DNA of 64,000 bases. Source: the human T2T-CHM13v2.0 reference genome, Homo sapiens. Within the stretch, counting starts at the first letter, position 1; every line of letters starts with the position of its first letter. Location of the stretch: assembly GCF_009914755.1 (NCBI RefSeq), contig NC_060927.1; one strand, 5' to 3'. This document shows positions 4,750 through 57,422 of this stretch, piece after piece. The notes beneath the pieces were generated by a model that searched no databases, was not told the origin of the DNA, and saw only the letters and a program-made list of their open reading frames with translations. The position numbers and the translations under genes were made by a program.

Positions 4750-4885
4750 CTGCAAATGCTGTGAGTTGTCAGCCATGCTGTCTTCTCGCCTGCGCACTTC
4801 TTCTAGTAACTGAGCATTTTTCTTCTTTTCCAACTGTTGATTGTGCTTGAGGTTGGCCACCTTCTTATTCTGATCTTTCATATGC
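4750..4885 (-). CDS. ERC2: ERC2 coding exon, 136 nt, phase 2/0 (HMKDQNKKVANLKHNQQLEKKKNAQLLEEVRRREDSMADNSQHLQ)
   Basis: Minus strand reads gacttttctcag|GCATATG...TTGCAG|gtaagc. It has 1 nt plus 45 codons, and the phase matches the upstream exons ending in AG. Confidence 0.97.
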
Positions 4886-34025: not shown

Positions 34026-34240
34026 CCAGGAGTTTGAGATCAGTCTGAGCAACATAGTGAGACCCCACCTCTGCAAAAAAAAAAAAAAATTCAATTAGCT
34101 GTGCATGGTGGTAGGCCTGTAGTTCTAGCTACTTGAGAGGCTGAGGAGGGAGCATCACTGGGCCCAGTAGTTCAAGGGTGCAGCAAGCTGCAATCACACC
34201 ACTGTACTCCAGTCTGGGAAACAGAGCGAGACCCTATCTC
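34026..34240 (+). mobile_element. 5'-truncated AluJ-like element followed by a T-rich tract instead of poly(A)
   Basis: End of the left arm, A-rich linker and right arm are present, followed by a T tract at 34241-34272. Confidence 0.85.
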
Positions 34241-40260: not shown

Positions 40261-40272
40261 CTGAGAGTCAAG
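40261..40272 (-). CDS. ERC2: ERC2 12-nt microexon, phase 2/2; changes ELE-R-HMK to ELE-SLTL-R-HMK
   Basis: Minus strand reads ccaatcag|CTTGACTCTCAG|gtcagt, preceded by ACTAAT and an AG-free pyrimidine zone of about 130 nt. Joined to the flanking exons it gives ESLTLRHMKDQ, the sequence I recall from the ERC2 reference protein. Confidence 0.93.
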
Positions 40273-46340: not shown

Positions 46341-46534
46341 CTCTCCAGTTCTGCGATCTTCTTGTCCTTGTCATTCTTCTCATTCTCCACCTCCTTGAGG
46401 ATCTCCAGCAACCGGTCCACTTCCGCTTGGGCCTTGCCACACTCGTCGCGGTAGTAAGACGCCTCTTTATCGAGCTGTTTTATTTGGTCTGCAAACTCAG
46501 GGTTCATCCTGGAGTCATCTTCAATATTATGTGC
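46341..46534 (-). CDS. ERC2: ERC2 coding exon, 194 nt, phase 0/2 (AHNIEDDSRMNPEF...KDKKIAELE)
   Basis: Minus strand reads ttgaag|GCACAT...GAACTGGAGAG|gtaaat. It has 64 codons plus 2 nt, is CpG-rich like an exon, and the peptide is recognised as ERC2. Confidence 0.97.
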
Positions 46535-47425
46535 CTTCAACATTACATTTTTAAAGAATGTAGTTAAGACAACAATTTAGAACAATAGACAGTGCTGTCA
46601 CCAATGGTCCAGAAATTAACTTTGGAGAGAAAATCACCACCAAGATTTATGGGTATATTGTCAGTGAAAAGGCAAAATAGAAAAATCACACATTTCAGCT
46701 ACCTTAGAAGAATGCTGATTTTAAAATAATATTAGAGTTTCACAGGGGAGTTTCTTCAATTATTGATATTTTGTTCCATTAAATGTTGCTACTTTTAGCT
46801 TTTCTTTCCACCAAAAAGTAGGGTTAGATACTGTGATGTCTTTATTCCCGGTCATTTGATAAGCAGACCTAAGACAATTCAACTCCTCACAGTTAAGGAG
46901 GTGATTCATACAAAATGCTTCCATTTCCAATACAAAGACACCAAAACAACACAATATTGGATTATTTTCCAAGAACTATCAAGGGCACATGTAAAGCCAG
47001 ATAACATATAAGAGACTGATTAACTAATAATTGAACATGTCATTCCACTGAGAAATTTCAGCAGGAAATATAGTTTGAAAGGAGGCTTGGAGGTGAGGAA
47101 GGGCTTTCCAGCTAACAGTTATACCCATAAATTCTCATTCTCTTAAATAAATTTAACCTAAACCAGGAGGAGGATGAGCTAATTCATGAACAAGTACACA
47201 GACAAGAATCTGCAAACACATGCATGGGTGGGTGGCAGCTTCACACACAAGAAAAGACACAGGCAACAACACAGCAACAACATTGCAGAATAATTTGCAG
47301 CCAAAGTATTTGTGGGTTTGTGTGTGAGAGAGTGCGTTACAGCTTTTTTTTTTCCCAAAATAAACTTTTGGCTGAAATATTCCCAGACAGATAGAAATAA
47401 CACTGCACTGCAATGTTTTGCCTAC

Positions 47426-47455
47426 CCCTTGTTTCCCATTATTCCTAATTGACTT
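47426..47455 (-). CDS. ERC2: Candidate alternative ERC2 microexon, 30 nt (27 nt with the second tandem acceptor), phase 0/0 (KSIRNNGKQG)
   Basis: Minus strand reads ttgttttttccctgcctgctctttgaag|AAG|TCAATTAGGAATAATGGGAAACAAGGG|gtaggc. It is open and frame-preserving, with an AG-free zone of about 88 nt upstream and TGCATG about 200 nt downstream. Confidence 0.65.
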
Positions 47456-48931
47456 CTTCAAAGAGCAGGCAGGGAAAAAACAAGTAGTTTATACAACAGT
47501 GCACATTCAACATAGAAAGTTCAGATAAGTCATATACGTATGTATCTCCAAAATCCATGGATGACATAATCAAATGTTAACAATTTTTAAGGACTTAAGT
47601 TTTTCTGCTGTCTTGCTACATGGAGCAGATATTTATTGTGTTTTTATATACTTTTTTGAAAATTTCAGGGAAAAAACAAGGCAAGCAAGCTACAGCTACT
47701 GTGGGATTGAATGAATCATGCATGGTTAGAAAAATTAATACTAATACTACGGTTAGAAGGTTTGACAGTCTTTGCAATGATTCAATAGAAAAAAAATTCA
47801 AAAATTAGTATAAATAAAATAAATTTCATATGACAAAATAATCATTTTAGAAATAATATTTTTGCATGTAACATATTATTTAAGCATGAGGATAAAGGGG
47901 AAAAAGTTGCTTTCATGTTCTTAAACCTAAGATTTCCTTATTTAAGAAATAAACTCAATTACACAAAAAAAAAACAAGAAAAATATGTCAATTCAACACA
48001 CTATCAGGTACTGGTTTATTCCCTTTTACCAACATTTTTCAGAAAACATTTATTTTCATTTATTTACTATGCACTCTGTGTTTCATTATAATAGATTATT
48101 AAACTTTTTCAGTACAATTAAAATAATCTGAAAGAGAATCCTGAGCTAACATACCTTTAGGAGTATATTTATCTAATAATTTCATTTTAAGCTTAAGTAA
48201 TGAATAAATTTCCTAATCTCCACTTTAAAAATGTAGAGCAGAAATTCTATTTTAAAAGAAAGTAACTACTCCATATACCTGCTTCTATTTGTGACAATAT
48301 GAATCATTACTTTTGTTACAGAAAAGCATTTAAAATACACAGCTTTTAAATTGCTAAGGAAAAACTTCGTGTTAACCTCTCTTTCATTTTTATACTGTAT
48401 TACCATTCTTTTACAGCAGTTAAAAACCTTTTCATGACATTTCTTGAACTATCCAAACAAGGCTATTAAGATTTTTAAAAAAGAATTAATGAACTGAGTA
48501 ATGAGCAGCTGGAAGCCCTCAAAACAAATGAATACGTATATTTTGATTGCCTGTTTCTTAGGACAGTTAAAACTCCTTTCCTGATGCTGATTTTTAAAAG
48601 TTCACAAATAGCTAGCAGTTAGTTGCTGTGGCTTATTTTGGTTGTTTTTCTTATTATTATAGTCCGTTTTTAATAAGTGGGTACAGGATTACTAGTTGCA
48701 AGACCAAGATTCTAAATCCAGTCCTGCATCTTATATTTACAAAAGATTAGGCAAATTAATTAGCCTAAAAACCATGAAAACTACAAAATGACAAACACGG
48801 GGGGAGATATTACTCACTTTTGTTTTTATTATAATTATTATTTCATAATATGCATCCCAGAAATACAGCTTGTTACTCAGCTAAGTTAATAGATTTATTT
48901 GATTTTCATTGACAAGATACTACATACTCCC

Positions 48932-57386: not shown

Positions 57387-57422
57387 TGGGTTGTACATCT
57401 GATTGAACAACTGCTCAGCTTG
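57387..57422 (-). CDS. ERC2: Candidate alternative ERC2 cassette exon, 36 nt, phase 0/0 (QAEQLFNQMYNP)
   Basis: Minus strand reads gctaat, then an AG-free pyrimidine tract of about 70 nt with UGC triplets, then caatgtag|CAAGCTGAGCAGTTGTTCAATCAGATGTACAACCCA|gtaagt. It is open and in phase with the flanking exons. No transcript evidence is available to me. Confidence 0.75.

What the first reader, a model, noticed from the sequence alone, without database searches (positions are those of the whole stretch)
47426..47455. Hidden 30-nt microexon KSIRNNGKQG with a tandem AAG|AAG acceptor (30 or 27 nt)
Seen: ttgttttttccctgcctgctctttgAAG|AAG|TCA...CAAGGG|gtaggc, 891 nt upstream of the 194-nt exon. Two TGC triplets lie within 16 nt of the acceptor. 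Downstream there is a UG-rich tract (about 47240-47290) and TGCATG (47219-47224). Both acceptors keep the frame, differing by one Lys. Inference: a basic, Gly/Asn-rich flexible insert at the same junction as the 36-nt exon, regulated by SRRM4, CELF and RBFOX-type factors.
Basis: partly seen in the sequence, partly recalled or inferred. Interest (0 to 1): 0.72.

Follow-up and report, generated by a model that had tools for sequence, protein, structure and literature searches.

The report
Conserved unannotated 30-nt ERC2 microexon
A 30-base coding mini-exon of the synaptic scaffold gene ERC2, missing from the human RefSeq table but present with almost the same ten amino acids in gene models from apes to birds and lizards, is real and probably lengthens a flexible hinge in the protein.

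Summary
The sequence is exactly as described. On the minus strand, window 47455-47426 (T2T chr3:56,033,426-56,033,455) is a 30-nt open unit, KSIRNNGKQG, in the phase of the 194-nt exon. It has a strong pyrimidine tract, two UGC, an AAG|AAG acceptor and a GGG|gtaggc donor.

Splice signals alone are only suggestive: about 0.7 such units are expected per 64-kb strand. The decisive evidence is orthology. All 120 of the 120 best protein hits to this junction carry the insert between the 36-nt-exon peptide and the 194-nt-exon peptide:
- KSIRNNGKQG in 61 placental-mammal models, bonobo and orangutan included;
- KPIRNNGKQG in echidna;
- KPIRNEGKQG in Mastomys;
- MPIRNNGKQG in 55 bird and lizard models.

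None of the 16 proteins named Homo sapiens has it.

The insert lies 5 residues before the published CCC/CCD border of ELKS2. AlphaFold models turn a 3-residue helix break into a 23-residue break when both small exons are present. ERC1 has no counterpart.

The 27-nt tandem-acceptor form has no support (0 of 234 proteins). SRRM4 control is inferred, not shown: it rests on the UGC motifs, a 90-nt AG-free zone, and the neighbouring 36-nt exon being Srrm4-dependent in mouse. RBFOX and CELF control rest on motifs only.

This is an ordinary kind of element, and a genuine gap in the human annotation.

The parts
47426..47455 (-). 30-nt alternative coding microexon of ERC2, AAG TCA ATT AGG AAT AAT GGG AAA CAA GGG = KSIRNNGKQG (T2T-CHM13 chr3:56,033,426-56,033,455)
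   Evidence: Sequence. The same peptide sits at the same junction in ortholog models.
47456..47457 (-). Acceptor AG used by all ortholog models that begin the insert with K (30-nt form)
47453..47454 (-). Second AG of the AAG|AAG tandem, lying inside the exon. It would give a 27-nt form, for which no support was found.
   Evidence: score 1.75 against 8.84; 0 of 234 proteins.
47458..47481 (-). Pyrimidine tract with two UGC (47471-47469 and 47467-47465) and a CUCU just before the acceptor
   Evidence: Two or more TGC are found at 44 of 491 acceptor-like AGs.
47458..47545 (-). AG-free zone. The next upstream AG is 90 nt from the acceptor AG, which implies a distant branch point. The only yUnAy match is CTTAT, with its A at 47526.
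   Evidence: 0.43% of AG-to-AG gaps on this strand are this long. The 36-nt exon has 73 nt, the 12-nt exon 136 nt, and the long exons 19, 32 and 60 nt.
47420..47428 (-). Donor site GGG|gtaggc, the weakest of the exon donors scored in this window
   Evidence: crude score 6.94 against 7.31-11.92 for the five annotated exons.
47240..47290 (-). UG-rich intronic tract 136-186 nt downstream of the donor; function unknown
   Evidence: 14 TG in 51 nt; 0.12% of windows reach this.
47219..47224 (-). Single TGCATG (RBFOX-type hexamer) about 200 nt downstream of the donor
   Evidence: chance of at least one within 300 nt is 10.5%.
57387..57422 (-). Upstream annotated 36-nt alternative exon (QAEQLFNQMYNP). 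It accompanies the 30-nt exon in every model seen.
   Evidence: Hub table. The mouse orthologue is Srrm4-dependent (PMC3464207 Table S2).
46341..46534 (-). Downstream 194-nt constitutive exon (AHNIEDD...), phase 0, with a weak AAG acceptor

Best explanation
Window 47455-47426 (minus strand) is a genuine, evolutionarily old, alternatively included coding microexon of ERC2 (CAST/ELKS2). The human RefSeq table given for this window lacks it.

It is spliced between the 36-nt alternative exon (57387-57422) and the 194-nt exon (46341-46534). It adds ten residues, KSIRNNGKQG, after residue 687 of the 957-residue protein, 5 residues before the published border between coiled-coil regions CCC and CCD. 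CCC holds the Bassoon and liprin-alpha binding side. CCD holds the CaV-beta side and is followed by the RIM-binding tail.

Shown here:
- the sequence, its frame and its splice signals;
- its presence at the same junction in gene models of at least 50 amniote species, with 8 of 10 residues identical between human and birds or lizards;
- its absence from ERC1.

Predicted here: the insert lies in a non-helical, low-confidence stretch. Together with the 36-nt exon it lengthens the helix break from 3 to 23 residues, that is, a longer flexible hinge between two rod segments.

Inferred, not shown:
- Inclusion is neuron- or sensory-cell-specific and promoted by SRRM4/SRRM3 through the two UGC next to the acceptor and a distant branch point. 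I put this sub-claim at about 0.6.
- Inclusion is coupled to the 36-nt exon.
- The exon is used in human tissue.
For: Sequence and frame:
-.
- Crude splice scores are in the range of the annotated exons: 3'ss 8.84, 5'ss 6.94.
- It is the only such unit in the intron.

Orthology:
- With the 194-nt exon peptide as query, 6 of the 120 best hits carry ...QAEQLFNQMYNP-KSIRNNGKQG-AHNIEDD....
- With the junction region as query, 120 of 120 best hits carry a 10-residue insert there. The forms are KSIRNNGKQG (61), KPIRNNGKQG in echidna (2), KPIRNEGKQG in Mastomys (2) and MPIRNNGKQG (55 bird, lizard and one unnamed protein).
- Species named include Pan paniscus, Pongo abelii, four Old World monkey genera, three New World monkey genera, sheep, ibex, pig, deer, cattle, horse and four rodents.

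Position in the protein:
- The junction lies between residues 687 and 688.
- ELKS2 CCC ends at ...NIE656 and CCD starts at 657DDS in the construct numbering of Held et al. 2016 (PMC4935463, Figure 1 legend).

Structure predictions:
- With both inserts: helix 670-705, no helix 706-728, pLDDT below 50 over 704-728.
- Canonical human protein: helix 660-695, break 696-698, helix 699-792.

Regulatory context:
- The AG-free zone is 90 nt, similar to the two annotated small exons at 73 and 136 nt.
- Neural microexons have an extended branchpoint-to-3'ss distance (abstract of PMC12871342).
- The mouse 36-nt exon is listed among Srrm4-dependent exons (PMC3464207 Table S2).

The region is single-copy in the genome and outside the masked repeats of the hub table.
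Against: - None of the 16 proteins named Homo sapiens has the insert, and the hub's RefSeq table lists no exon there. Use in human is therefore inferred from an intact sequence and from ape models.
- Gene models of other species are predictions. Some may have been built by aligning proteins of other species rather than from RNA reads, so the number of models overstates independent transcript evidence.
- Several primate models with the insert are oddly truncated or duplicated.
- The donor is the weakest of those scored.
- No paper describing the exon was found.
- The readable supplements of three microexon surveys had no ERC2 rows.
- The only Erc2 exon in the Srrm4 table is the 36-nt one.
- The structure models are monomers of a coiled-coil protein with pTM 0.20-0.24, so only local helix breaks can be read from them.
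Confidence: 0.85

Rival explanations
1. The exon is real and conserved in other amniotes but is used little or not at all in human tissues. On this view the human annotation is right to leave it out.
For: 0 of 16 proteins named Homo sapiens carry it. The RefSeq table with 20 human transcripts has no exon there. The donor GGG|gtaggc is weak.
Against: The human sequence encodes the same ten residues as the bonobo, orangutan and monkey models. It keeps AG and GT, the pyrimidine tract, both UGC and a 90-nt AG-free zone. Nothing in the human copy is broken. Short exons are commonly missed by aligners (abstract of PMC7821500, seen in the listing).
Confidence: 0.1
2. The insert in the many gene models is an annotation artefact. 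It would have been passed from species to species by protein-homology modelling, and the underlying sequence would not be a spliced exon.
For: The models are computational. Several carrying the insert are aberrant: truncated tails, or a repeated exon block in Papio.
Against: A model can only carry the insert if that genome has an open, in-phase unit with usable splice sites at that place. This holds in at least 50 species spanning mammals, a monotreme, birds and squamates, with 8 of 10 residues fixed. Neutral intron sequence would not keep that. Lineage-specific substitutions (KS, KP, MP, NE) show the peptides were read from each genome and not copied.
Confidence: 0.03
3. It is a chance pseudoexon: an AG...GT pair that happens to be open and in frame.
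For: About 0.71 units of this strength are expected per 64 kb of Markov sequence.
Against: The peptide is conserved at the same junction across amniotes. The unit has two UGC and a 90-nt AG-free zone like the neighbouring annotated small exons.
Confidence: 0.02

Closest known systems
The orthologous ERC2 exon in predicted gene models of other amniotes (for example proteins named ERC protein 2 isoform X1/X4 of Pan paniscus, X1-X3/X11/X12 of Pongo abelii, and models of Macaca, Callithrix, Ovis aries, Columba livia and Pogona vitticeps)
   Same: Same junction and same 10-residue length. The peptide is identical in placental mammals and 8 of 10 residues match in birds and lizards. The insert is always preceded by the 36-nt-exon peptide.
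   Different: Those are models of other species. The human RefSeq table for this window and the 16 proteins named Homo sapiens lack it. I could not look at Ensembl/GENCODE or VastDB.
The neighbouring 36-nt ERC2 exon (window 57387-57422, QAEQLFNQMYNP)
   Same: Same intron-exon junction of the protein. It is small, frame-preserving and alternative, with UGC-containing upstream sequence and a long AG-free zone of 73 nt. It is ERC2-specific, since ERC1 models have no insert there.
   Different: It is annotated in human and is listed as Srrm4-dependent in the Bronx waltzer mouse (PMC3464207 Table S2). Its peptide is predicted mostly helical, whereas the 30-nt peptide is predicted non-helical.
SRRM4/SRRM3-dependent neural microexons as a class (class features recalled from the literature; abstracts seen in the listing and)
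   Same: Short, frame-preserving and deeply conserved, in a presynaptic scaffold gene. There are UGC next to the acceptor, an extended branchpoint-to-3'ss region, and the insert falls in a linker rather than a folded core.
   Different: At 30 nt it exceeds the strict 3-27 nt definition. Tissue specificity and SRRM4 dependence are untested.
DAAM1 neuronal microexon (PMC12056172; only the start of the abstract in the listing was seen)
   Same: It works alike in outline: according to that abstract, inclusion extends a linker region of a scaffold-type protein.
   Different: Unrelated gene and domain. The functional consequences were shown there and none are shown here.
NAGNAG tandem acceptors
   Same: Two AG dinucleotides lie 3 nt apart (AAG|AAG). 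Use of either keeps the frame and would differ by one Lys.
   Different: No model uses the second AG (0 of 234). Birds and lizards begin the insert with M and so do not have this tandem at the protein level.

Membership tests
Alternative coding microexon | Very short internal exon. Published cut-offs are <=30 nt (PMC7821500 abstract), <=51 nt (PMC4317164 abstract) and 3-27 nt (PMC7935315 abstract). | tested here: met
   30 nt. This meets the <=30 and <=51 definitions. It does not meet the strict 3-27 nt one unless the unsupported 27-nt form is used.
Alternative coding microexon | Bounded by AG and GT, keeps the reading frame, no stop codon | tested here: met
   The flanking introns are phase 0 and the unit is ten sense codons.
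Alternative coding microexon | Present in some transcripts and absent from others | tested here: inconclusive
   In gene models it is present in 6 and absent in 112 of the 118 junction-covering proteins. Of the 112, 64 have no insert and 48 have the 36-nt insert only. All of these are predictions, and no RNA reads could be examined.
Alternative coding microexon | Sequence conservation above that of the surrounding intron | tested here: met
   This was tested at the protein level only. 120 of 120 junction hits carry the insert, with 8 of 10 residues identical from human to birds and lizards. Nucleotide alignments were not available.
SRRM4/SRRM3-dependent neural microexon programme | UGC motif(s) close upstream of the acceptor (feature recalled from the literature, not taken from a call) | tested here: met
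   Two UGC within 16 nt. This occurs at 9% of acceptor-like AGs in the window.
SRRM4/SRRM3-dependent neural microexon programme | Extended branchpoint-to-3' splice site distance (PMC12871342 abstract) | tested here: met
   AG-free zone of 90 nt. The only yUnAy match has its A 71 nt upstream of the exon. The branch point itself is not mapped.
SRRM4/SRRM3-dependent neural microexon programme | Inclusion restricted to neurons or sensory and endocrine cells | not testable with these tools
   No expression data were at hand.
SRRM4/SRRM3-dependent neural microexon programme | Inclusion falls when SRRM4/SRRM3 is lost | not testable with these tools
   Only the neighbouring 36-nt exon appears in the Srrm4 mouse table (one Erc2 row).
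NAGNAG tandem-acceptor splicing | Two AG dinucleotides 3 nt apart at the acceptor | tested here: met
   AAG|AAG at 47458-47453.
NAGNAG tandem-acceptor splicing | Both acceptors used, giving products that differ by 3 nt | tested here: inconclusive
   0 of 234 proteins have the 27-nt form, including 65 mammalian models with the insert. The downstream site scores 1.75 against 8.84. Gene models do not list every minor 3-nt variant, so junction reads are needed.
RBFOX-enhanced exon | (U)GCAUG within about 300 nt downstream of the exon (feature recalled) | tested here: inconclusive
   There is one TGCATG about 200 nt downstream. The chance of at least one in 300 nt is 10.5%, and 29% for GCATG. Conservation and binding were not testable.

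The most novel reading that the evidence does not exclude
The 36-nt and 30-nt exons form one ERC2-specific two-exon hinge module. It is older than the mammal-sauropsid split and absent from ERC1. Included together, the exons convert a 3-residue kink at the CCC/CCD border of CAST/ELKS2 into a flexible linker of about 23 residues. This would change the reach or angle between the Bassoon/liprin-binding half and the CaV-beta/RIM-binding half of the scaffold. The module would be switched on by SRRM4/SRRM3 in particular synapse types, such as hair-cell and photoreceptor ribbon synapses. Because the 30-nt exon is missing from the human reference annotation, variants in it go unread.
Probability: 0.25. 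Interest if true: 0.55.

Novelty: new member of a known kind. Interest (0 to 1): 0.33.

Why it matters
ERC2/CAST is a core scaffold of the presynaptic active zone. A 2018 review states that both ELKS genes have numerous internal exons that may be alternatively spliced, with unknown functional relevance (PMC5830537). This exon sits at the border between the two protein-binding halves of the molecule and has been kept for more than the age of amniotes, yet it is not in the human RefSeq table.

Practical consequences:
- Human variants in or next to it are scored as deep-intronic.
- Short-read pipelines that rely on annotation will miss it.
- Isoform-specific work on CAST, including rescue constructs and antibodies, ignores it.

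The kind of element is well known, so this fills a gap rather than opening a new question.

Tried and rejected
- Paralogue test. I located the ERC1 counterparts of the 141-nt and 194-nt exons in the same genome. The 6437-nt ERC1 intron, inside the 20 kb fetched, was searched for the peptide and for nucleotide similarity and for splice-flanked open units. Only 4-5-residue chance matches turned up, plus two unrelated weak candidates, one of them Alu-like. 117 of 118 ERC1 proteins show no insert at the junction, and the remaining one is a fragment without the key motif. ERC1 therefore gives no independent support and has no counterpart.
- Literature. No paper held 'IRNNGKQG'. 'ERC2'+'microexon' gave one paper, and its ERC2 microexon is the annotated 12-nt exon (supplement file 7). 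Searches with ERC2 plus SRRM4, Rbfox, nSR100 or cassette exon found only general mentions. These include an ERC2 splicing event validated by PCR in autism cortex, with the exon not stated in the text (10.1101/077057; supplements closed).
- Supplements. Those of PMC9303857, PMC7821500 and PMC4317164 held no 'ERC2' in the files that could be searched; some files were not searched. PMC7935315 had only expression rows. The supplement of PMC12871342 could not be read. The 2014 Cell microexon paper was not held under the id I tried.
- I considered a poison-exon reading and dropped it, because the unit is in frame and has no stop.

Full report
**The observation.** On the minus strand the window reads ...ttgttttttccctgcctgctctttgaag|AAGTCAATTAGGAATAATGGGAAACAAGGG|gtaggc. 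The unit 47455-47426 is 30 nt, has no stop codon and translates to KSIRNNGKQG. The intron between it and the 194-nt exon (46341-46534) is 891 nt. That exon begins in phase 0 (GCA CAT AAT...), as do the 141-nt and 36-nt exons upstream, so the unit is in frame. The second AG of the AAG|AAG pair would give a 27-nt form. In T2T-CHM13 the exon is chr3:56,033,426-56,033,455 (offset confirmed).

- The unit scores 8.84 at the acceptor and 6.94 at the donor. The five annotated exons of the window score -5.39 to 10.66 and 7.31 to 11.92.
- In the 14.9-kb intron it is the only open in-phase AG..GT unit of 3-51 nt at thresholds 6/6.
- In the whole window, both strands, only one other unit reaches its scores, an Alu-like one inside a masked repeat.
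- Markov-1 sequences give 0.71 such units per 64 kb. A reader choosing the best candidate in a window could therefore find one by chance.
- Two or more TGC in the 20 nt before the AG occur at 44 of 491 acceptor-like sites.
- A TGCATG within 300 nt downstream has a 10.5% chance.
- The UG tract is unusual in composition: 14 TG in 51 nt, reached by 0.12% of windows.

The acceptor is preceded by 90 nt without any AG, which is true of 0.43% of AG-to-AG gaps on this strand. The two annotated small exons have 73 nt (36-nt exon) and 136 nt (12-nt exon). The three long exons have 19, 32 and 60 nt.

**The decisive evidence.** The large protein database used here also holds vertebrate gene models.
- With the 194-nt exon's translation as query, the 120 best hits split as follows: 64 with no insert before AHNIEDD, 48 with the 36-nt-exon peptide only, and 6 with ...QAEQLFNQMYNP-KSIRNNGKQG-AHNIEDD... 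One further hit is N-terminally truncated and one lacks the motif.
- With the junction region of one of those proteins as query, all 120 listed hits carry a ten-residue insert at that place.
- 61 placental-mammal models have KSIRNNGKQG: bonobo, orangutan, macaques, baboon, mangabey, marmoset, capuchins, sheep, ibex, pig, deer, cattle, horse, kangaroo rat, ground squirrel and naked mole-rat.
- Echidna has KPIRNNGKQG (2 models) and Mastomys has KPIRNEGKQG (2 models).
- 55 proteins have MPIRNNGKQG, from about 35 bird species, five squamates and one unnamed source.
- Eight of ten residues are thus fixed between human and sauropsids, while the flanking 194-nt-exon peptide itself differs (AHNIEDDS against AHEAEEEA).
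- The lineage-specific changes show that the peptides were read from each genome.
- None of the 16 proteins named Homo sapiens has the insert. This agrees with the hub's RefSeq table.
- The 401 nt around the exon are single-copy in the genome.

**Limits of that evidence.** These are predicted models. Some may rest on protein alignment rather than RNA reads. Several primate models with the insert have truncated or duplicated tails. What the models do prove is that an open, in-phase, splice-flanked unit has been kept at this spot in at least 50 amniote genomes, which neutral intron sequence would not do. I could not examine RNA reads, nucleotide alignments, Ensembl or VastDB.

**The tandem acceptor.** No protein has the 27-nt form: 0 of 234, including the 65 mammalian models with the insert. 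My crude score for the downstream AG is 1.75 against 8.84. Birds and lizards start the insert with Met, so the tandem is not an old feature. Minor use in human cannot be excluded without junction reads.

**Coupling with the 36-nt exon.** In the sample that was not biased toward it, all 6 models with the 30-nt exon also have the 36-nt exon, and none has the 30-nt exon alone. The sample is small and consists of models, so coupling is a lead only.

**Paralogue.** ERC1's matching exons lie on contig 12. Its 6437-nt intron has no similar peptide or sequence and only two unrelated weak candidates. 117 of 118 ERC1 proteins read QLKK|AHEA with no insert, and the remaining one is a fragment. Both small exons are therefore specific to ERC2, at least in primates.

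**What it does to the protein.**
- The junction is between residues 687 and 688 of the 957-residue protein.
- Held et al. 2016 place the end of coiled-coil region CCC at ...NIE and the start of CCD at DDS... (PMC4935463, Figure 1 legend). That is five residues after the junction.
- According to the same paper and a review (PMC5830537), CCA-CCC bind liprin-alpha, CCC binds Bassoon, CCD binds CaV-beta subunits, and the C-terminal tail binds RIM.
- In an AlphaFold2 model of an orangutan isoform with both inserts (990 residues, 31-row alignment), a helix runs 670-705 and the next begins at 729. Residues 706-728 are non-helical and 704-728 have pLDDT below 50.
- In that model the 36-nt-exon peptide (696-707) mostly prolongs the upstream helix. 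The 30-nt-exon peptide (708-717) lies wholly in the break.
- In the canonical human protein the break is three residues (696-698) between helices 660-695 and 699-792.
- Both models are monomers with pTM 0.20-0.24, so only the local helix pattern is usable.
- The reading is that the microexon lengthens a flexible hinge between two rod segments. This is a prediction, not a measurement.

**Regulation.** The mouse orthologue of the 36-nt exon is in the table of exons whose inclusion depends on Srrm4 in the Bronx waltzer mouse (PMC3464207, Table S2, one Erc2 row). The text names Erc2 among ribbon-synapse proteins with splicing defects. The 30-nt exon is not in that table. Its two UGC beside the acceptor, the CUCU, and the long AG-free zone fit the architecture reported for neural microexons (abstract of PMC12871342). 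The UGC rule itself is recalled from the literature. I therefore think SRRM4/SRRM3 control likely (about 0.6) but unshown. RBFOX control rests on one hexamer near chance level. CELF or other UG-binding control rests on a real but uninterpreted UG-rich tract.

**Comparison with what is known, and novelty.** This is a standard kind of element: a short, frame-preserving, deeply conserved alternative exon in a synaptic scaffold gene that alters a linker. Its orthologues are already present in public predicted gene models, including great apes. It is absent from the human RefSeq table for this window. I found no paper that describes it. The ERC2 microexon reported in brain circRNA is the annotated 12-nt exon. 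I file it as a new member of a known kind, of modest interest. It is a useful correction to the human annotation and a testable handle on ELKS2 isoform function, which a review calls unknown.

**Verdict.** The core interpretation, a hidden in-frame microexon giving a flexible insert at the junction of the 36-nt exon, is supported. The 27-nt alternative is not supported. The named regulators remain untested.

Noticed in passing
proteins P0001 and P0002 (Papio anubis ERC2 models), corresponding to window exons 46341-46534, 40261-40272 and 4750-4885: Both models repeat the block of the 194-nt, (12-nt) and 136-nt exons, with ...NSQHLQ joined directly to AHNIEDD.... This is the pattern expected from a back-splice (circular RNA) read or from an assembly duplication. 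A nanopore study reports ERC2 circRNA in human brain containing the 12-nt microexon (PMC8355340).
   Followed up: partly
window 40261-40272 (-): The annotated 12-nt exon has the longest AG-free zone of the window's exons (136 nt, 0.09% of gaps). It also has three TGC in the 30 nt before its acceptor. This is a textbook small-exon architecture that served as an internal positive control.
   Followed up: partly
window 46535-46564 (-): The constitutive 194-nt exon has a very poor acceptor on the crude matrix (-5.39). The tract is purine-rich...ttaaaaatgtaatgttgaag, again with an AAG acceptor. Whether this weak site matters for recognition of the microexon 891 nt upstream is unknown.
   Followed up: no
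window 34027-34068 (-): This is the only other unit in the window that reaches the candidate's splice scores. It is a 42-nt open unit inside a masked repeat, with Alu-like sequence, so it is a potential Alu-derived pseudoexon. A marmoset ERC2 model ends in an Alu-like peptide (P0032), though not necessarily from this place.
   Followed up: no
window 47240-47290 (-): A UG-rich tract with 14 TG in 51 nt, reached by 0.12% of windows. It could be a binding platform for UG-binding proteins or simply a degenerate TG microsatellite.
   Followed up: partly
L003 (contig 12, 1177738-1184174), ERC1 intron: The ERC1 intron paralogous to the 14.9-kb ERC2 intron is only 6437 nt. It holds no counterpart of either small ERC2 exon.
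   Followed up: yes
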